IMG/VR virus record: IMGVR_UViG_2844443253_000003
Direction: 5' to 3' (one strand)
Origin: a virus
Lineage: Duplodnaviria; Heunggongvirae; Uroviricota; Caudoviricetes
Length of the DNA stretch: 52,166 bases
Positions 32,987 through 44,412 of this stretch are shown here, one piece after another; within the stretch, counting starts at the first letter, position 1, and every line of letters begins with the position of its first letter. Both the position numbers and the translations under genes were made by a program. The notes beneath the pieces were generated by a model. The model was not told the origin of the DNA, did no database searches, and was given only the letters and a program-made list of their open reading frames with translations.

Positions 32987-34054
32987 ATGTCACAGAACTG
33001 GATGAGACATTTCGAGCTGCAGCTTGTGGACGGGAACGGTCAGGGAATTGAGCTAAGTGATTTCAAAGTCACCTTTACGATCGACTGGTTCAACATCAGC
33101 AGCGCGTCCCGGGTAGGGACTATCAAAATTTATAACCTCTCGGCAGATACTGTGAACCGAATTACCGGGCAGGAGTTTTCGAAAGTGCGTCTGATTGCGG
33201 GTTACGACGGTATCGCGCCGGAGGTGTCGGCAAGCGACGTCGGGACAGTGCGGGAAGTTGACGCGGCGGACGTGGGCCAGAGTGATGGTCGCAACTACGG
33301 ACTGATTTTCAGCGGTGAAATTCGCTACTCGGTCACAGGAAAAGACAGTCCGGTTGATTCCTACGTCCTGATTCAGGCAGCAGATACTGATCTGGCTTTT
33401 GCCACCAGTATAACCTCACAGACGCTGGCTGCCGGTTACACGGTCGCTGATGTGAACCGTGCGCTGATGAAAGACTTCGAAGCCAAAGGTGCGACCGAAG
33501 GCCTGACGCCTGAAATGCCTGCTACTGTATTCCCCCGGGGGCGGGTACTCTTTGGCATGACGCGGCATCTAATGGATAACGTAGCCGGGCAATGTGGCGC
33601 AACATGGCAATTCGTGGACGGTCAGCGCCAGATGGTGGCGAATAACGAATATGTTCATGAAGCGATTGTGCTCAACAGCGCTACCGGGCTTATTGGCATG
33701 CCGCAGCAGACTATCGGTAACGGCGTAAACGTCCGCGCGCTTATTAATCCGAACATCCGGGTTAACGGACTTATTCAGCTGGATCAGGCTTCCGTGTATC
33801 GTACCGCCTTGTCGAACAACGATATTGCGATGGCTGGTGGTCAGATCACCGACCAGAACACGGATGGAAATATCACGCTAAGCGGCACCACATCGCAGCC
33901 TGCCAGCATCGCAACGGATGGCGTTTATATTGTGCGCGGGATTATGTACACTGGCGACACAAGGGGCCAGGCGTGGTACATGGATATGATGTGCGAAGCG
34001 CGTGGCGCGGCGGATCTTCGTTCTGCGTCGTCTTTACAGCGTGAGGTAGGATAG
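32987..34054 (+). CDS. putative baseplate hub/tail protein
   Basis: 355-aa ORF preceding the accessory insertion. Confidence 0.5.
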   Translation: MSQNWMRHFELQLVDGNGQGIELSDFKVTFTIDWFNISSASRVGTIKIYNLSADTVNRITGQEFSKVRLIAGYDGIAPEVSASDVGTVREVDAADVGQSDGRNYGLIFSGEIRYSVTGKDSPVDSYVLIQAADTDLAFATSITSQTLAAGYTVADVNRALMKDFEAKGATEGLTPEMPATVFPRGRVLFGMTRHLMDNVAGQCGATWQFVDGQRQMVANNEYVHEAIVLNSATGLIGMPQQTIGNGVNVRALINPNIRVNGLIQLDQASVYRTALSNNDIAMAGGQITDQNTDGNITLSGTTSQPASIATDGVYIVRGIMYTGDTRGQAWYMDMMCEARGAADLRSASSLQREVG

Positions 34055-34407
34055 TGAAAAAGTGGATTGTTATCGGACTCTGTTTCCTTACGGGGTTAGC
34101 ATTTGCTGCGAATCCTGGCGGTATCACGCTTCAGTGTGGTGGCTACAAATTAGAGTTGATTCCTGATTCATTGTTCAGGATGAATGGTGAGACAGTTACC
34201 TCCCAGAAAATCAAAACGCTCGGCAACGGTAATGGAATGAAGGCGGATATGGGTCTTATGCCTGCCAAAGACGGTAACAACTACGGCTTTGAATACATTC
34301 GTCGCCCTGGTACCGAAACGCGATTCCTGAATGTCCAGCTTCTGCAGAACAGCATGGATGCGCCGAAAATCATCGGATCTTTCCCTTGTAAAAAAGTGGC
34401 TGGGTGA
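34054..34407 (+). CDS. small secreted protein with signal peptide (moron candidate)
   Basis: GTG start overlapping upstream stop; N-terminus MKKWIVIGLCFLTGLAFA then ANPGG; not a recognisable tail protein. Confidence 0.5.
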   Translation: MKKWIVIGLCFLTGLAFAANPGGITLQCGGYKLELIPDSLFRMNGETVTSQKIKTLGNGNGMKADMGLMPAKDGNNYGFEYIRRPGTETRFLNVQLLQNSMDAPKIIGSFPCKKVAG

Positions 34408-34556
34408 AGGTAACCTGAAATTCGTAACGCCTGAAAAACAACAAAATGTGCTCTAAAAACTATTGTTTTTTGAGACGAGCGATTACACTGCACTGACTTT
34501 TTGATGGTGGATTGCCATCGATATGCTACTTCATTAAAGCCAGGAATAACTAAAAC

Positions 34557-35288
34557 ATGAGTTTAGCGCAGCCAAAATCAGGAGAACTGTTAGATCTTCT
34601 GACTCCTTCATTAACTAAGGGTGAAAACCTTCTGAGTGAGTTTGAAATCCATCGAATCATTCGTGAAGCGAAGAAACTACCTGAACGTTATCAGGGGCTA
34701 TCAATTGAAGGCTTAGCTAAGCTTGTTCTTGGTGAAATAGATGAAGGATGTTCACTCTGTGAGCGGGGGTTGAGAATAGCGCCTAACGATCCAGTTTCTT
34801 TTTGTAACTATACGATTGCGCTGCGTAACTTAGGTTTGCATGCTCGCCAGTATGTGATGATTCAGAAAGCATCTGATTCACTTAATCCAACGATATTGGC
34901 TGAGGTTGCTACAATTTCTGCATACTGGGTTGATATCGATTTGCTTGAAAAGGTGATGCCGATGCTAACTGCAATGGAAGTACCGCGCCCTGAAGATATG
35001 GGCAAATGGTATGACACGCTCAATTATCTGCATACCCAAAAAGATCATGCTCAGGAGCTAAAAACTATTGGGCGGCTCATGATGAACGTTGCAGAAAAGT
35101 ACCGCGCTCGTCTTGCTGGCGCTCATGCTTTTTATGTAATGTCAGAACTTGATACGCTGTTCGTTGAAGTCAAAACAGACGATCCAGTGCTTCTTTCGCA
35201 GATGAATAATGCCTTGGCTGATGAGATTATTATTGCGGGGCTTGCGGATTCAGAATGCGTCGGATGCTTTGAAGCCGGGGAACTCTAA
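34557..35288 (+). CDS. hypothetical helical protein, accessory cassette gene A
   Basis: 243 aa, about 40% GC versus about 52% in flanking tail genes; no recognisable structural-protein features. Confidence 0.55.
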   Translation: MSLAQPKSGELLDLLTPSLTKGENLLSEFEIHRIIREAKKLPERYQGLSIEGLAKLVLGEIDEGCSLCERGLRIAPNDPVSFCNYTIALRNLGLHARQYVMIQKASDSLNPTILAEVATISAYWVDIDLLEKVMPMLTAMEVPRPEDMGKWYDTLNYLHTQKDHAQELKTIGRLMMNVAEKYRARLAGAHAFYVMSELDTLFVEVKTDDPVLLSQMNNALADEIIIAGLADSECVGCFEAGEL

Positions 35289-35716
35289 TGTCGGTTGAGC
35301 ATACCTGTTTTCTTGAATTGGCTAAGCATTCCCTGGCTCTAAACGGTGAGATGTGGACGAGAAATGCTATTAGCCGAGCATACTATGGTATGTACCATTC
35401 CGCCTTACGGATCACCAACAATCTGGTACCGACCGCTACACAAGATGGTGAAAAACTAAAAGGTGGAGTTCACATGCGAGTCTATACGGCCTTTTGTAGT
35501 GGTGAGGCAGCTGCACTTAACGATGTTGATGTTAACGCAGTAAAGAAAATCGGCGTTAAACTGAAAATGACGCATGCCCAACGTGTTAATTCTGATTACA
35601 AGCTTGAGCGGAAAATCAACCGGATTACCGCGAGAAGTGTAATTCTGGATGCGGAAGAGGTCGATGCAATCGTTAATCAATTACTGAAGATTGGTGATGA
35701 CTCGTTAACTGCATAA
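35288..35716 (+). CDS. hypothetical protein, accessory cassette gene B (possible HEPN-like fold)
   Basis: 142 aa; start overlaps stop of gene A (TAATG); motif AISRAYYGMYHSALR. Confidence 0.5.
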   Translation: MSVEHTCFLELAKHSLALNGEMWTRNAISRAYYGMYHSALRITNNLVPTATQDGEKLKGGVHMRVYTAFCSGEAAALNDVDVNAVKKIGVKLKMTHAQRVNSDYKLERKINRITARSVILDAEEVDAIVNQLLKIGDDSLTA

Positions 35717-35737
35717 GCTGAAATTTCTCAAAATTCA

Positions 35738-35761
35738 AACCCGCCACTTGGCGGGTTTTTT
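35738..35761 (+). terminator. intrinsic terminator closing the accessory cassette
   Basis: hairpin AACCCGCC-ACTT-GGCGGGTT followed by TTTTTGC. Confidence 0.7.
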
Positions 35762-35780
35762 GCTTTCTGGAGCCTACTAA

Positions 35781-36533
35781 ATGGCAGTATCTGACCAGAC
35801 CCGCAGCGGCGACCTTGCCGAAACATTTAAATCTGAACGGGAAACAACAAAGAACCAGATCCGTGTCGCCTTGCCTGGCATTATTCAGTCATTCGATCCT
35901 GATGCGGTGACGGCAGTTGTGCAGCCTGCTATCCGTTCGGTTGAAAAGGATAATGACGGCAACCGCATTACCAAAAATTACCCATTGCTGGTGGATGTGC
36001 CAGTGGTATTCCCGCGCGGCGGAGGATGTACGCTAACGTTCCCAGTTAAAGCCGGTGATGAATGTTTGGTGATTTTTGCCGATCGTTGTATTGATTTCTG
36101 GTGGCAGAGTGGCGGGATACAGGAGTCGGTCGATGACAGAATGCATGATTTATCGGATGCGTTTTGTATTGTCGGTCCCCAGTCGCAGGCAAGGAAGATT
36201 AGCGGTATTAATACCAGTGCCACACAGTTGCGTAGTGATGACGGCAGCACCTATTTTGAGCTTAATCCTGATACCAGGAAAATTAAAATTGTCGCTCCGG
36301 GGGGCCTTGATGTGGTTGCCCCTATGGCTGATTTTTCTGAGAAAGTAACCATTCATGGCCTGTTAACCTGGATGGGAGGCATGGTGGGGTCTGTTGTTTC
36401 TGGTGTGGCTTCAAAAATTACTGGTGCTGTTGAGTTTTTGGGTAGCGTGAAGGCTAACGGCAAGCCAATCGATGATACGCACACTCATGGTGGTGTTCAG
36501 CGCGGTGGAAGCAATACCGACGGAGTAAACTGA
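35781..36533 (+). CDS. baseplate spike/assembly protein V-like
   Basis: 250 aa; position and size match a Mu/P2-type gpV. Confidence 0.55.
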   Translation: MAVSDQTRSGDLAETFKSERETTKNQIRVALPGIIQSFDPDAVTAVVQPAIRSVEKDNDGNRITKNYPLLVDVPVVFPRGGGCTLTFPVKAGDECLVIFADRCIDFWWQSGGIQESVDDRMHDLSDAFCIVGPQSQARKISGINTSATQLRSDDGSTYFELNPDTRKIKIVAPGGLDVVAPMADFSEKVTIHGLLTWMGGMVGSVVSGVASKITGAVEFLGSVKANGKPIDDTHTHGGVQRGGSNTDGVN

Positions 36534-39993: not shown

Positions 39994-41247
39994 TTAAGGC
40001 TGTTTTTTTATTAATGTCATCGTCCATCCTGCAGGGTTGAACTTGAAAGAATACGATTCTCCTGGTGCTAAGCTTTCAAATTTTTTAACTTGCTCTTTCC
40101 ACCCGTAATCTGGGAGTGGGGTAAGATTGAAAAAATATAAACATGAGATTAACGATGTTGTATATAACATCCATGGTAGGAATTTAAAGTGCAAGTGGGA
40201 AATATAGTTTAAGAAGTAAACCAATACAGAGTACCATATAATTGTTGGTATGACAGAATATCTTCCTCCGCCATGAATTAATAATGGCCATTGCTCACTT
40301 GTAGATGAAAGCATTGGTTTTGCTAGTGAAAACGTTAATGTTAGTATTGCGAAAACTATTGCCGAGCGCATGGGGTAATTGGAAACAATAAATGTAAAAA
40401 TAGTGATGGAAAGACAAATTATTGTAATTGCAATGCAAATTGAATCATGATTCCATAAAGGTGATAAAAAGTCACCATTAGCCCATAAACCCAGAAAAAC
40501 CTTTGTTGTTAATATTTTGCAAAGTGTTGCAAAATTAGCTCCAAGAACCATATCAACTCTGGTCTCAGAGGATGTCATAATAATAGAAATAAATTGAATC
40601 AAACAAATGGCAATGAAAACGTATTCGTGAGTGGTTATTTTTTTTGTAGATAAGCGTTTTTGTATAAGTATATTTATCCCTACCATTGGAGCCATGAATA
40701 CTATAAATGGACCACTTAGTCCACATATGATTATCGCTATATAATCGTGTGCTTTTTGATAATTATTTGTAGGCTTTGGAGCTAACATAACAAGAAGTAA
40801 ATATAGTGATAAATACCAATGATCATTAGTAACATTGGCGTGCACTTCTGATACTTCAGGCATTATTATAATAAACAAAGCAGTAAATATTCTTGGTGTT
40901 ATGTTTACGTAACTAAATCTTCCAGAGAGTATGAAAGATACAAGCAATGCCCTAACAATAATTGCGGAGATGTTAAAAATTAAAGGGGCATACATTAAAT
41001 TAAAATTTAATGATATGGAGGCAATAAGTTTTGATATGGTTTGATAATATCCATTTTGAGGGAATATCATTGATGTGAATATGCCATTATTGTATGCCAT
41101 AGCATACCATACATGACCATCTTCTGCCCAAAACTGCGGTGTTCTGATTATATCAGGGCGGCGCAAATACATCAAAATAACCGCAATGAAAAATACAGCA
41201 ATTAAGAAAAATAGTTTTTTTACATATGATGTTTTAAGGCTTTTCAT
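39994..41247 (-). CDS. serotype-specific O-antigen glucosyltransferase Gtr(type), polytopic membrane protein
   Basis: 417 aa, hydrophobic, AT-rich, third gene of gtrA-gtrB-gtr operon next to attR; exact type (GtrV/GtrX/other) not determinable here. Confidence 0.8.
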
Positions 41248-42167
41248 TTTTGTTTCTCATTTTTGATGATGTATTTGGGACGATGTTTGCTTTCAATATA
41301 GATTCTGCCTATATATTCACCGAGAACACCAATCCCGATCAGCTGCACTCCACCCAAGAAAAGTATTGATACAAGCAGGGAGGGATACCCGCGTACTGGG
41401 TTACCAAAGACAAGGGTGTCTATAATCATCCATGCACCATATAAAAATGAAATGCTTGCAACAAACAAGCCTATATAAGTCCATACGCGAAGAGGAAAGG
41501 TTGAAAAACTTGTGATACCTTCCAGTGCCAGATTCCATAATTTCCAGCCATTAAATTTTGAGATGCCAGCAACGCGCTCTGCGCGTACATATTCAACGAC
41601 ATCTGTCTGACCACCCACCCAGCTCAGTATGCCTTTCATGAAAAGATTGCGCTCAGGCAACAGTTTAATGTTCTCCACAACCTCACGAGACATGAGTCGA
41701 AAATCTCCGACATTTTCCTCGATCTTTGGGGTGCTTATTTTGTTGTGTAACTTATAGAACCACTCAGCTGTCTTACGTTTCAGTCGTCCATCAGTTGAGC
41801 GGTCTGAACGTTTAGCAAGCACCATGTCAGCACCTGCCTGCCACTTTTCAATAAGATGAGGGATAACCTCAATTGGGTCTTGCAGGTCGACATCAATAGG
41901 AATTACAGCATCGCCGCTTGCATGGTCTAACCCTGCAAATAAGGCTGGTTCTTTACCAAAGTTGCGTGTAAATGACAGCGGAACAACTAGCGGGTCTGAA
42001 ACAGCCAGCGCGTTAATAATTGACTCCGTGGCATCTTTACTTCCGTCATTTATGAATACAATTTCTACTTCATATGGCTTCAACTCTTGGAATTCACGTA
42101 CCGTTTTATAGAAAACAGGTATCGCTTCTTCTTCATTGAAGACAGGAACGACAAGAGATATTTTCAT
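41244..42167 (-). CDS. gtrB: bactoprenol glucosyltransferase GtrB
   Basis: 307 aa GT-2 family N-terminus [17 protein letters not shown]...INDGSKD; C-terminal TM helices. Confidence 0.9.
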
Positions 42168-42526
42168 TTCGCATCCCTAAAGACAATGAACTTTGAATAG
42201 ACGAAACCGCACACCAGGCTGATGGCGGAGAAGGTGATAAGAGTGACTATTGGAGGAAGTGAGCATTTATCAGCAGCCCAACCAACAATCACACTCAATA
42301 TTCCCATGAATCCCACGTATAACATGTAGCGCATCGCTGTAGTCGATGCTTTGAATGTGAATCTTGCATTCGCGAAGAAGCTAAAGCTCACAGCCACTAC
42401 GAAACCTGTGAAGTTTGCCAGGGCCTGACTGGTATGTGCGGCATAGATACATACACCAAAAACCACCCAGTGTATAAGTGTGTTCAGCACACCTATAGAT
42501 GTGTACTTTACAAATAACTTTAACAT
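42164..42526 (-). CDS. gtrA: GtrA flippase-like membrane protein
   Basis: 120 aa, four predicted TM segments, [23 protein letters not shown]. Confidence 0.9.
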
Positions 42527-43146: not shown

Positions 43147-44412
43147 TGAGGTGTACTGGCAATAGCGGACACTACCATTTGTTCTTTTTTTAAGCAGCCA
43201 TCTGATGATATTTTTCCCTGAAGGCTGCCGGGGAGATATTCCCCAGACGAGAGTGACGACGCTGACGATTGTAGAAAATCTCAATGTATTCCCGTATTAC
43301 TGAGATGGCTTCATCCCGGTTATTAAAACGATAGTGGCTCAGGCTCTCATTTTTCAGCGTTCCCCAGAAGCTTTCCATCGGAGCGTTGTCGTAACAGTTA
43401 CCTTTACGCGACATTGATGTTTTCAGACCAAACTGCTCCTGTATGACCCGGTAATCGTATGCGCAGTACTGTGAACCTCGATCAGAGTGGTGGATTAGCC
43501 CGGCAGGTGGGCGCTGGCTCCTGAGCGCCATAAACAGGGCTTTACCTGTCAGCTCTTTTGTCATGCGCTCTCCCATGGCGTAGCCGACAATTTCGCACGT
43601 ATAAACATCTTTGATGCCAGCGAGGTACAACCATCCCTCCTGTGTGGCAACATACGTCAGGTCCGCCACCCAGACCTGATTTGGTGCTGTAGGAGCGAAC
43701 GTCTGGTTCAGCAGATTTGGCGCAACTGGCAGATTGTGGTTCGGGTTCGTAGTCGCTCTGAACTTGCGTTTCTGCTTACAGCGTAGCCTCAGCTCCTTAC
43801 GAAGACGTGCCAGTCGGTCACGACCAACGATGATGCCATTCTCTGCCAGCTCCGTCTGGAGCCGCCGGGTTCCATATGTTTCGCGAGTGCGGATATGTGC
43901 CACCTTAATCTCCGGTTTTAGCCGCTCATCACTTTGTTTTCTGTCTGAGGGTTCATGCTGTACCCAGTTGTAATAACCGCTCCTGGATACACCAAATACC
44001 TGACACATCGCTTCAATGGGAAATTGTTGTCGCCATTGTTCGATTAACGCGTATTTTTCAGCGACTCCTGTGCAAAATACGCTGTTGCTTTTTTTTAATA
44101 TATCTCGCTCAAGGCGAGCTTCATTTAACGCCTTACGCAGTTGCAGAATTTCAGATTCCAGTTCAGCCAGCGTGCGGGAACCAGGAGTACCGAGCCCTTT
44201 TCTGGCGGCGGTAACCCATTGTCCTAAAGTGCCTTCAGGAAGGAATAATCGGGAAGCGTCTTCACTGATCGAAAGTTGATTTTCAAGAACCGTTCTGACA
44301 GCTTCGGCTTTGAACTCTTTAGAGTAACGTTGGGTTTTTCTGCTCATTATTAGCTCCTTCTGATGCCATTCTATTTCAGGAAGGAGTGTCCGTTAAACTC
44401 AGGCTACCTCAG
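43147..44412 (-). mobile_element. IS600 (IS3 family) copy 1, no flanking target duplication
   Basis: ends TGAGGTAGCCTGAGTTTAACGGACACTCC / GGTAGTGTCCGCTATTGCCAGTACACCTCA shared with copies at 47312 and 51306; flanking triplets differ (CCC vs GAC). Confidence 0.85.
43190..44347 (-). CDS. IS600 transposase as a contiguous OrfAB fusion (385 aa)
   Basis: A-run of 8 at the slippery site (vs 7 in copy 2) puts orfA and orfB in one frame. Confidence 0.8.
   Translation of the reverse strand: MSRKTQRYSKEFKAEAVRTVLENQLSISEDASRLFLPEGTLGQWVTAARKGLGTPGSRTLAELESEILQLRKALNEARLERDILKKSNSVFCTGVAEKYALIEQWRQQFPIEAMCQVFGVSRSGYYNWVQHEPSDRKQSDERLKPEIKVAHIRTRETYGTRRLQTELAENGIIVGRDRLARLRKELRLRCKQKRKFRATTNPNHNLPVAPNLLNQTFAPTAPNQVWVADLTYVATQEGWLYLAGIKDVYTCEIVGYAMGERMTKELTGKALFMALRSQRPPAGLIHHSDRGSQYCAYDYRVIQEQFGLKTSMSRKGNCYDNAPMESFWGTLKNESLSHYRFNNRDEAISVIREYIEIFYNRQRRHSRLGNISPAAFREKYHQMAA

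What the first reader, a model, noticed from the sequence alone, without database searches (positions are those of the whole stretch)
34557..35761. Low-GC two-gene cassette with its own terminator inside the tail module: candidate undescribed accessory (defence or toxin-like) system
Two translationally coupled ORFs (243 aa and 142 aa; stop/start overlap TAATG at about 35286-35290) sit between the baseplate hub-like gene and the spike V-like gene, a place where Mu/P2-type tail operons normally have nothing. Sampled GC is about 40%, against about 52% in flanking tail genes. The pair ends in a strong intrinsic terminator (35738-35761). Neither protein looks structural. Protein B carries AISRAYYGMYHSALR (R-x6-H in a helical context), weakly reminiscent of HEPN-type RNase folds, but the motif is near the N-terminus, which is atypical. 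Protein A looks all-helical and TPR-like and has no nucleotidyltransferase (MNT) motif, so this is not a standard HEPN/MNT pair. Embedded late-operon morons of this kind are where prophage-encoded anti-phage and exclusion systems are repeatedly found.
Basis: partly seen in the sequence, partly recalled or inferred. Interest (0 to 1): 0.8.

Follow-up and report, generated by a model that had tools for sequence, protein, structure and literature searches.

The report
Prophage HEPN nuclease with TPR partner
Two tightly coupled genes sit in a swappable cargo slot of a prophage tail operon; they encode a probable RNA-cutting HEPN toxin and a previously undescribed acidic partner protein, and together they make a good but untested candidate for a new anti-phage or toxin-antitoxin module.

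Summary
The two overlapping ORFs (A, 243 aa; B, 142 aa), the lower GC and the terminator are all present. The details need correcting. GC is 44%, not 40%. A conserved 117-aa gene lies between the hub gene and the cassette. The terminator belongs to the slot and is shared by every cargo variant.

A is not an MNT nucleotidyltransferase. It has TPR-like repeats and an acidic C-terminal alpha-beta-beta-alpha-beta domain, with no enzyme-like conserved residues.

The pair is obligate: 75 of 76 viral loci with a B homologue have an A homologue coupled upstream. It is also mobile, occurring in the tail slot, lambdoid nin regions and P2-like accessory loci. In E. coli, 353 of 5,426 complete genomes carry this tail module, but only 32-33 carry this cargo. 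Others hold a YafO toxin pair, a second HEPN pair or small membrane proteins.

Best reading: a two-component HEPN RNase effector with an inhibitor/sensor partner, acting as an abortive-infection or TA module. Function is untested. This is a new variant of a known kind.

The parts
34408..34556 (+). Left end of the variable cargo: 149-nt AT-rich spacer (36.9% GC) upstream of gene A
   Evidence: Homology between cargo variants ends just after the stop codon of the small backbone ORF, at about 34408. Blocks of the spacer are conserved between E. coli and Salmonella copies of the cassette. No sigma-70 consensus promoter was found. GC.
34557..35288 (+). Gene A (243 aa, pI 4.8): TPR-like helical repeats (residues ~7-160) plus an acidic C-terminal alpha-beta-beta-alpha-beta domain (residues 162-240). 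Predicted non-enzymatic partner (inhibitor and/or sensor) of B
35286..35290 (+). TAATG stop/start overlap coupling A and B
   Evidence: Read directly from the sequence. Tight coupling (adjacent, or overlapping by 1-20 nt) is kept in all homologous pairs.
35288..35716 (+). Gene B (142 aa, pI 8.6): HEPN-domain protein of the AF0298/UPF0332 (HEPN-T) type; predicted metal-independent RNase effector
35348..35398 (+).
   Evidence: All are invariant (H37 99%) in 119 family members, 51 of them below 40% identity. The stretch aligns to S33-x2-Y36-Y37-x3-H41 of AF0298.
35471..35473 (+). Codon of H62, the alternative histidine in the insert between helices 2 and 3
   Evidence: Invariant in 119 of 119 sequences. 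This is the position predicted as the alternative catalytic His of AF0298-like HEPN domains (PMC3710099). The analogous H64 is essential in retron IX HEPN effectors. Residue-level equivalence was not verified.
35582..35599 (+). Codons of R99-V-N-S-D103-Y104 at the C-terminal end of helix 3: the counterpart of the Rx4-6H motif, with no histidine
   Evidence: R99, D103 and Y104 are invariant in 119 of 119 sequences. The stretch aligns to R-E-E-S-D-Y of AF0298. Helix limits.
35737..35764 (+). Intrinsic terminator (AAACCCGCC-ACTT-GGCGGGTTT plus T run), which is also the conserved right junction of the cargo slot
   Evidence: The hairpin is conserved in all cargo variants: the A-B pair, the second HEPN pair, the YafO pair, DUF2335, DUF4282 and the 170-aa gene, and also in Salmonella and Ewingella. 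About 180 E. coli genomes match only this part of the cassette query.
34054..34407 (+). Backbone gene that bounds the slot on the left: 117-aa basic protein with an N-terminal hydrophobic, signal-peptide-like stretch. Not part of the cargo
   Evidence: phrog_3443. It is present after the hub gene in all relatives but one, whatever the cargo; in SEN34 the gene at that position is a 77-aa protein that was not tested against phrog_3443. The signal-peptide-like stretch was read by eye from the translation; no predictor was run.

Best explanation
The cassette is a self-contained, horizontally exchanged two-protein module carried as cargo by temperate phages. B is a HEPN RNase of the AF0298-like subfamily. 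Its active site is probably built, at a dimer interface, from H62 and R99 (with D103/Y104 and the helix-2 residues E21/R25/R30/H37) rather than from a canonical Rx4-6H motif. A is made in fixed proportion with B through translational coupling. A binds B and keeps it inactive. The most likely mode is that A's acidic C-terminal alpha-beta-beta-alpha-beta domain covers B's basic RNA-binding face. A's fast-evolving TPR domain probably serves as the protein-recognition surface that releases B when a trigger appears. That trigger would be a protein of an infecting phage, or loss or degradation of A. Released B would cut tRNA and/or rRNA and stop translation. This would abort the infection or, as a toxin-antitoxin pair, penalise loss of the element.

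Shown: the gene anatomy, the HEPN fold, the invariant polar residues, the obligate pairing, the cargo nature of the cassette and its mobility between loci.

Inferred: RNase activity, A-B binding, which domain of A does what, the trigger, and the anti-phage outcome.
For: 2. Conservation pattern typical of an enzyme. E21, R25, S29, R30, Y32, Y33, H62, R99, D103 and Y104 are invariant, and H37 99% conserved, in 119 homologues, 51 of them below 40% identity. Anantharaman et al. 2013 predicted exactly this alternative site for AF0298-like HEPN domains: Arg kept, His replaced, and a second His from the helix 2/3 insert (PMC3710099).
3. Experimental precedent. Retron type IX HEPN effectors also lack Rx4-6H and use H64 plus R122 at the dimer interface. 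H64A or R122A abolish both toxicity and defence. The enzyme cuts tRNA/rRNA and is silenced by an acidic small alpha/beta domain of a partner that caps the active site (bioRxiv 10.64898/2026.07.14.737667 and .738597). B's only PADLOC hit is that family's profile (HEPN_IX, E 0.009, near full length).
4. A is not an enzyme. Only N84, N217 and F238 are at least 80% conserved. A is acidic across the family (median pI 4.8) and B is basic.
5. Obligate pairing. 76 of 76 IMG/VR loci with a B homologue have a coupled upstream ORF of 243-291 aa, and 75 of these hit the A-family HMM. Pairs persist down to 25-30% B identity, and A diverges faster than B.
6. Cargo behaviour. Only 32-33 of the 353 E. coli genomes with this tail module carry the pair. 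Alternative cargo in the same slot includes a YafO toxin pair and a second A-like/HEPN pair. The pair also sits in lambdoid nin regions and in P2-like int-proximal and ogr/repA-proximal loci.
7. Prophage-encoded HEPN abortive-infection proteins are established in enterobacteria and staphylococci: HepS and RemAIN (PMC13043305) and Tha (PMC11087260).
Against: - There is no experimental datum for this family. RefSeq calls both proteins 'hypothetical protein', although other sources use generic labels ('uncharacterized protein (UPF0332 family)', 'Bacteriophage protein', 'DNA-binding protein'). Both are 'unknown function' in PHROGs, and they are absent from the DefensePredictor tables that could be read.
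- B does not reach Pfam HEPN or any NCBIfam threshold. The PADLOC hit is weak.
- The canonical catalytic histidine is missing, so a non-catalytic, RNA- or nucleotide-binding HEPN domain cannot be excluded.
- A-B contact was not modelled, because no complex prediction was available.
- No promoter was found upstream of A in any context, so expression in the lysogen, which is needed for defence, is unproven. In this window the pair may be transcribed only with the late tail genes.
- A has no DNA-binding domain of the kind typical of type II antitoxins.
- A distant A-like protein stands alone in Yersinia phage YP3.
Confidence: 0.55

Rival explanations
1. Selfish toxin-antitoxin (addiction) cargo. 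B is a toxin and A its labile antitoxin. The pair only stabilises the DNA segment or prophage that carries it and gives no protection against other phages.
For: The layout is antitoxin-first, overlapping and two-gene, with an acidic A and a basic B. A YafO-family toxin pair occupies the same slot in other prophages. The pairing is obligate.
Against: A is large (243 aa) and has a TPR recognition domain. It lacks the DNA-binding and disordered-tail features of classical type II antitoxins. Many TA modules on phages turn out to act in defence, so the two readings are not exclusive. No instability of A has been shown.
Confidence: 0.17
2. A function in the phage's own lytic cycle. Here the pair would be expressed with the late tail genes. 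B might degrade host or competitor RNA, or counter a host defence. A might be a chaperone or inhibitor aimed at a host protein.
For: In this window the pair lies inside the late operon on the same strand, with no detectable promoter of its own. The host prophage type encodes a Q antiterminator that would read through the slot terminator. A distant A-like protein occurs alone in Yersinia phage YP3.
Against: The same pair sits in early or accessory regions (nin region, next to int, between the ogr-like gene and repA) in other phages, so late timing is not a conserved property. It is dispensable: about 90% of related tail modules lack it. No similarity to known anti-defence proteins was found.
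Confidence: 0.13
3. A non-catalytic adaptor pair. B would be an inactive HEPN domain that binds RNA or a nucleotide, and A a TPR scaffold. Together they would act in regulation or assembly without nuclease activity.
For: The histidine of Rx4-6H is absent. Several HEPN families (sacsin, the aminoglycoside NTase C-domain) are not nucleases (PMC3710099). TPR proteins are often assembly chaperones.
Against: Eleven polar or aromatic residues are invariant or 99% conserved across 25-100% identity, which is typical of a catalytic centre. The equivalent His/Arg arrangement is catalytic in retron IX HEPN effectors. A tail-assembly role is contradicted by the patchy distribution and by occurrence outside tail modules.
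Confidence: 0.08

Closest known systems
AF0298-like / UPF0332 HEPN domains (HEPN-T clade; Pfam PF05168) and their HEPN-MNT (type VII) toxin-antitoxin pairs
Retron type IX (Retron-Sen3/Yin1/Kva2): HEPN RNase effector plus KH/WH-HTH partner
   Same: Both HEPN proteins lack Rx4-6H and have an essential His near residue 62-64 and an Arg on a later helix. Both are silenced by an acidic small alpha/beta domain of a co-encoded partner. B's only hit in PADLOC is the HEPN_IX profile. A's C-terminal domain has the same alpha-beta-beta-alpha-beta order as the fold that the retron partner was compared with (CDF transporter C-domain).
   Different: The window has no reverse transcriptase, no ncRNA and no msDNA. 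A has TPR repeats and no HTH. A does not hit the PADLOC retron IX partner models. The HEPN_IX hit is weak (E 0.009), and the equivalence of H62/R99 with H64/R122 was not checked residue by residue.
Prophage-encoded HEPN abortive-infection proteins: HepS and RemAIN (Salmonella Gifsy-1), Tha (S. aureus phages)
   Same: All have a HEPN effector carried in an accessory slot of a temperate phage. [quoted passage not shown]
AbiV (lactococcal HEPN RNase)
   Same: It was grouped with AF0298-like domains by Anantharaman et al. as HEPN proteins in which the motif His is often absent. It has been shown to be a toxic, metal-independent RNase acting on rRNA.
   Different: AbiV is 201 aa, the characterised protein has R91...H97, and it is neutralised by an RNA (type III-like), not by a protein.
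Phage cargo hotspots and morons (lambda morons; P2/P4 hotspots of Rousset et al. 2022)
   Same: Fixed junctions with interchangeable, compositionally distinct cargo that includes toxins. A terminator lies at the downstream junction.
   Different: This slot lies inside the baseplate gene block, between the small gene after the hub gene and the spike gene, of lambdoid prophages with an E217/SEN34-type contractile tail. I found no description of this site as a hotspot in the papers searched, but the search was not exhaustive.

Membership tests
HEPN superfamily | Four-helix up-and-down bundle with the HEPN topology | tested here: met
HEPN superfamily | Rx4-6H motif between helices 3 and 4 | tested here: not met
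   R99 is present and invariant, but the position four or five residues on holds D103/Y104 and no His. Anantharaman et al. describe the same deviation for AF0298-like and AbiV families.
AF0298-like / UPF0332 HEPN-T subfamily (PF05168) | Arg of the motif retained, D in place of H, and a second conserved His from the insert between helices 2 and 3 | tested here: met
   R99, D103 and H62 are invariant in 119 of 119 sequences. H62 lies at the start of the short helix 61-71, just after the loop that follows helix 2.
AF0298-like / UPF0332 HEPN-T subfamily (PF05168) | Score above the Pfam gathering threshold for PF05168 | tested here: not met
   B has no Pfam hit. The paralogue in the same slot (L015) scores E 0.001, 19.6 bits against a cut-off of 22. 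Distant family members P0133, P0136 and P0146 have PF05168 on record. JGI labels several members 'UPF0332 family'.
HEPN RNases | Metal-independent endoribonuclease activity | not testable with these tools
   Inferred only, from the invariant residues and from retron IX and AbiV biochemistry.
Type VII HEPN-MNT toxin-antitoxin | Adjacent minimal nucleotidyltransferase (Pol-beta NTase fold, G-S-x(9-13)-D-x-D) that AMPylates the toxin | tested here: not met
Type II toxin-antitoxin | Two-gene operon with the antitoxin upstream and translationally coupled | tested here: met
   TAATG overlap. The coupling is kept in 76 of 76 viral loci.
Type II toxin-antitoxin | Antitoxin with a DNA-binding domain (HTH, RHH, AbrB) for autoregulation and a labile toxin-binding segment | tested here: not met
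Type II toxin-antitoxin | Toxicity of B that is neutralised by direct binding of A | not testable with these tools
   No complex prediction or experiment was available.
Retron type IX | Reverse transcriptase and msr/msd ncRNA next to the HEPN gene | tested here: not met
   There is no RT ORF in 30-40 kb of the window. Rfam finds only sub-threshold terminator-like hits.
Known anti-phage defence systems (PADLOC-DB v2) | Significant match of the components to a system's models | tested here: not met
   A: best E 0.037 (PDC-M71B). B: best E 0.0094 (HEPN_IX).
Phage moron / cargo cassette | Present or absent between conserved flanks in related phages, with deviating composition | tested here: met
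   32-33 of 353 genomes carry it. Junctions were mapped. GC3 is 0.38-0.41 against 0.58-0.63.
Phage moron / cargo cassette | Own promoter and own terminator | tested here: inconclusive
   A terminator is present but belongs to the slot. There is no consensus promoter, although blocks of the spacer are conserved.
Tail assembly / virion protein | Orthologues at this position in all related tail modules; structural-protein families | tested here: not met
   The distribution is patchy. The pair occurs outside tail modules in 26 of 76 viral loci. There are no structural families among the profile hits.

The most novel reading that the evidence does not exclude
The pair is a protein-only counterpart of the retron type IX effector logic. 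A non-canonical His/Arg HEPN tRNase dimer would be capped by the acidic alpha-beta-beta-alpha-beta domain of A. A's rapidly diverging TPR domain would act as a direct receptor for a structural protein of an invading phage and release the nuclease on binding. Under this reading, the hub/spike slot of these prophages is a previously unrecognised defence hotspot found in about 6.5% of complete E. coli genomes.
Probability: 0.22. Interest if true: 0.75.

Novelty: new variant of a known kind. Interest (0 to 1): 0.6.

Why it matters
HEPN RNases carried by prophages are emerging as a major class of abortive-infection effectors (HepS, RemAIN, Tha, retron IX). This module would add a widespread family with a new kind of controlling partner. 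The pair is found in Escherichia, Salmonella, Citrobacter, Enterobacter, Klebsiella, Serratia, Yersinia, Ewingella and a Vibrio phage.

It would also give a simple two-protein system for studying the non-canonical His/Arg HEPN active site that Anantharaman et al. predicted in 2013. That site has so far been tested only inside large retron assemblies.

Separately, the mapped slot between the small post-hub gene and the spike gene has fixed junctions. It holds at least seven alternative cargos, including a YafO toxin pair and a second HEPN pair. It is a ready-made place to mine for further accessory or defence genes, comparable to the P2/P4 hotspots.

Tried and rejected
- **MNT partner.** Rejected. 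A has no NTase fold or motif.
- **Tail-assembly or virion role.** Rejected, because the distribution is patchy and the pair occurs in nin and P2-like loci.
- **Retron.** Rejected. There is no RT and no ncRNA.
- **R30-x6-H37 as the Rx4-6H motif.** Rejected on topology, since it lies on helix 2. The residues are nevertheless invariant.
- **A terminator 'owned' by the cassette.** Rejected.
- **Identity with validated DefensePredictor systems.** The accessions WP_000050470 and WP_000110002 are absent from the supplement text held. The two-gene HEPN system DS-28 has unrelated sequences.
- **A literature hit on the accessions.** None.
- **Sequence-profile search of A's C-terminal domain against the PDB.** Nothing meaningful.
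- **Rfam scan of the cassette.** Only sub-threshold hits on the terminator.
- **Promoter scans in four genomic contexts.** No consistent consensus site upstream of A.
- **AFDB fold search for A.** The library was not available.
- **BFVD.** It gave two uncharacterised full-length structural relatives only.
- **The AT-rich inverted repeat at 34451-34474.** It is not conserved in the Salmonella copy, so it was not pursued.
- **Not done.** The Brenes and Laub study of E. coli prophage defence systems is not in the library and could not be checked.
Full report
**1. What is in the sequence**

Two ORFs on the + strand occupy 34557-35288 (A, 243 aa) and 35288-35716 (B, 142 aa). They share one base in a TAATG stop/start overlap. 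Downstream, a 9-bp G+C-rich hairpin at 35737-35758 is followed by six T. The 59-nt stretch containing it (35717-35775) folds at -18 kcal/mol, z = -2.5 against shuffles.

The flanking genes are a baseplate hub (32987-34054; phrog_196, weak PF22759) and a membrane-puncturing spike (35781-36533; PF18352 plus the GpV apex motif). Its product starts with a hydrophobic, signal-peptide-like stretch, which I read by eye from the translation.

Exact composition:

| Region | GC | GC3 |
|---|---|---|
| A | 44.0% | 0.38 |
| B | 44.1% | 0.41 |
| Upstream spacer 34408-34556 | 36.9% | n/a |
| Four tail genes upstream | 52-54% | 0.58-0.63 |
| Four tail genes downstream | 48-53% | 0.45-0.63 |

The contrast is real but smaller than '40 vs 52'. 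The finding's region (34557-35761) ranks only at the 16th percentile of same-size windows in the 52-kb window. A strict sigma-70 scan finds no promoter in 33900-35900.

**2. The cassette is cargo in a fixed slot**

A closely related prophage in E. coli strain WAT (99.9% identical over the cassette) is lambdoid. It has cI/Cro, Red, nin genes and a Q antiterminator, combined with an E217/SEN34-type contractile tail, and it is integrated between torS and torT.

In 5,426 complete E. coli genomes, 353 carry this hub/spike module, but only 32-33 carry the A-B pair. Related phages and prophages keep the hub gene, the small post-hub gene (phrog_3443) and the spike gene, and hold something else in between:

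- a 258-aa protein plus a 123-aa 'HEPN domain-containing protein' (L015);
- a 190-aa protein plus a YafO-family toxin (L016);
- a DUF2335 protein (L017);
- a DUF4282 protein (L018);
- a 170-aa protein (phage vB_EcoM-689R2);
- a 266-aa weakly TPR-like protein (Yersinia phage YP3);
- 77-aa and 138-aa proteins (Salmonella phage SEN34; here the 77-aa gene sits where the small post-hub gene lies in the others and was not tested against phrog_3443).

Alignments of the junctions show that all variants diverge just after the stop codon of the small gene, at about 34408. They converge again exactly at the terminator hairpin, the T-run and the spike ribosome-binding site. This also explains why about 180 genomes match only the last 45 bases or so of the cassette query. 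The terminator is therefore a property of the slot, not of this cassette. The Q-type antiterminator of the host phage offers an untested way for late transcription to pass it.

**3. Protein B**

Sequence libraries give little. There is no Pfam or NCBIfam hit. B falls in phrog_5176 (function unknown) and hits PADLOC HEPN_IX at E 0.009.

A broader profile search links the family by sequence to proteins that carry PF05168, and to the 123-aa HEPN protein in the alternative cargo (27% identity, E 2e-11).

In 119 family members, 51 of them below 40% identical to B, the following are invariant or 99% conserved: E21, R25, S29, R30, Y32, Y33, H37, H62, R99, D103 and Y104.

- R99-x3-D103-Y104 sits at the C-terminal end of helix 3 (residues 82-104), which is where HEPN domains carry Rx4-6H.
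- H62 lies at the start of the short helix 61-71, just after the loop that follows helix 2.

Anantharaman et al. (PMC3710099) described this deviation for AF0298-like and AbiV families. The motif His is absent, often replaced by D, while a second strongly conserved His from the helix 2/3 insert could form an alternative active site with the Arg.

Two 2026 preprints on retron type IX now give experimental weight to that idea. Its HEPN effector is the family behind PADLOC's HEPN_IX profile. It 'lacks the canonical Rx4-6H motif' and uses H64 and R122 from two protomers. H64A or R122A abolish toxicity and defence, and the enzyme cleaves tRNA and rRNA. I could not align B to those proteins residue by residue, so the equivalence of H62/R99 with H64/R122 is an inference.

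**4. Protein A**

A falls in phrog_22649 (function unknown). It also matches phrog_37103 and phrog_17809, and phrog_17809 is the family of the 258-aa partner in the alternative HEPN cargo.

The model (pLDDT 90.5) shows TPR-like helical pairs over residues 7-160. These are followed by helix 162-181, strands 186-194 and 198-205, helix 210-226 and strand 234-240.

- The TPR part is also seen by sequence.
- A profile of the C-terminal domain alone finds nothing in the PDB.
- In a library of 1.84 billion representatives, the family consists of roughly 60 to 70 full-length proteins of about 220-276 aa among the 150 listed hits. A 103-aa and a 78-aa match look like fragments; no hit shows the family fused to another domain. 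The remaining hits are generic TPR proteins.
- Only N84, N217 and F238 are at least 80% conserved. That argues against an enzyme.
- The family is uniformly acidic (median pI 4.8; C-domain of A 4.55), whereas B is basic at 8.55.

**5. The pair is obligate and mobile**

Homologous pairs lie at the same tail slot in Salmonella and Ewingella (A 69% and 43% identical). They also lie elsewhere:

- the nin region of Klebsiella lambdoid prophages (A-like protein, hhalign probability 99.9);
- next to int, or near Fic and ogr, in Yersinia P2-like prophages (probability 93-97);
- between an ogr-like gene and repA in a Vibrio P2-like phage (probability 92);
- in a Serratia prophage, in another context.

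In IMG/VR, 76 of 76 loci with a B homologue and enough upstream DNA have a coupled upstream ORF of 243-291 aa. Of these, 75 hit an HMM of the A family. Fifty loci are in the hub/spike slot and 26 are not. The sample is biased by the search patterns and contains near-duplicates.

A diverges faster than B. For example, A is undetectable by BLASTP where B is still 27% identical.

**6. Mechanism**

I combine five observations:

- a small basic HEPN protein with an enzyme-like invariant polar cluster;
- a co-translated, acidic, non-enzymatic partner that never separates from it;
- residence in accessory slots alongside bona fide toxins;
- the retron IX precedent, in which an acidic small alpha/beta domain of a partner caps the same kind of non-canonical HEPN site;
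- the established role of prophage HEPN proteins in abortive infection: HepS, RemAIN and Tha.

The best-supported reading is an effector plus inhibitor/sensor module. A holds a B dimer inactive. A trigger, either a foreign phage protein bound by the TPR surface or loss of A, frees B. B then cuts tRNA/rRNA and arrests the cell. I put about 0.55 on this as a whole. By component:

| Claim | Confidence |
|---|---|
| B has the HEPN fold | ~0.97 |
| B is catalytically active | ~0.7 |
| A directly neutralises B | ~0.55 |
| The benefit is anti-phage defence rather than pure addiction | ~0.5 |

Rival readings are a purely selfish TA module, a role in the phage's own late programme, and a non-catalytic adaptor pair. 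They are set out separately with their tests.

**7. Comparison with known systems, and novelty**

[quoted passage not shown] It is not a HEPN-MNT (type VII) pair, because there is no nucleotidyltransferase. It is not a retron, because there is no RT and no ncRNA. It is not a match to any PADLOC system. It is not HepS, Tha or RemAIN.

RefSeq calls both proteins 'hypothetical protein'. Other sources use generic labels such as 'UPF0332 family', 'Bacteriophage protein' and 'DNA-binding protein'.

I found no paper or supplement that mentions the two proteins. The library is incomplete, however, and at least one relevant study could not be read.

I class the module as a new variant of a known kind: a HEPN effector with a new type of partner, in a cargo slot not previously described as far as I could check.

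**8.

Corrections are needed to the GC value, the neighbouring small gene, the fold of A's C-terminus and the ownership of the terminator.

It was wrong about which residues correspond to the catalytic motif, and wrong that the site is normally empty. The proposed mutagenesis should target H62 and R99 (and D103/Y104) in addition to R30/H37.

Noticed in passing
window 34054-34407 (+): A 117-aa basic protein (pI 9.4) with an N-terminal hydrophobic stretch that looks like a signal peptide (MKKWIVIGLCFLTGLAFA; read by eye, no predictor run), phrog_3443, function unknown. It follows the hub gene in all relatives but SEN34 (77-aa gene there, not tested), whatever cargo comes next. It is a backbone gene of this tail module, with intermediate GC (47%).
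   Followed up: partly
window 35737-35780 and loci L001, L006, L009, L015-L018: A strong intrinsic terminator immediately upstream of the spike gene is conserved in every cargo variant, and even in Ewingella. So a terminator sits permanently inside the late tail operon. It probably insulates the cargo and is read through by Q-modified polymerase, and it may also serve as the homology anchor for cargo exchange.
   Followed up: partly
L002 (Yersinia phage YP3) 4577-5377: A 266-aa protein in the same slot is a distant, full-length A-like protein (hhalign probability 71%, E 3.6e-5), with no HEPN gene after it. It may be an orphan partner, possibly an anti-toxin decoy, or the similarity may be fortuitous.
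   Followed up: partly
L016 2190-3180 (E. coli 98207) and other genomes: The same slot holds a 190-aa protein (phrog_35514, function unknown) coupled to a YafO-family toxin (PF13957, E 4e-17). The upstream protein is not a known YafN-type antitoxin.
   Followed up: no
L029 3001-3396 (Klebsiella phage ST405-OXA48phi1.3, MK416008.1): The record annotates two small CDSs where a single intact 132-aa HEPN ORF of the B family can be read. It keeps E, R, S-R-x-Y-Y-x3-H, H and R-x3-D-Y. This looks like an annotation error in the public record.
   Followed up: yes
window 39994-42526 (-): A low-GC block (about 37% over 40001-42000) after the tail-fibre genes encodes GtrA (PF04138), GtrB (a family 2 glycosyltransferase) and a 417-aa polytopic membrane protein with no Pfam hit. 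This is the layout of a serotype-converting O-antigen glucosylation (gtrABC) cluster.
   Followed up: partly
window 43190-44347 (-): An IS3-family transposase ORF (HTH_Tnp_1 plus rve domains) lies next to the gtr block.
   Followed up: no
window 34408-34556 vs L009/L010 5841-6000: Blocks of the spacer upstream of gene A (CGATTACACTGCA, TTTTGA[T/A]GG, TTGCCATC) are conserved between E. coli and Salmonella copies whose A proteins are only 69% identical. No sigma-70 consensus promoter is detectable. These blocks could be a regulatory site or an atypical promoter.
   Followed up: partly
output: The cluster look-up placed the 243-aa and 142-aa proteins in one '162-member cluster' that mixes both lengths. 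This looks like an artefact of how the tool reports two queries, not a biological fusion.
   Followed up: no
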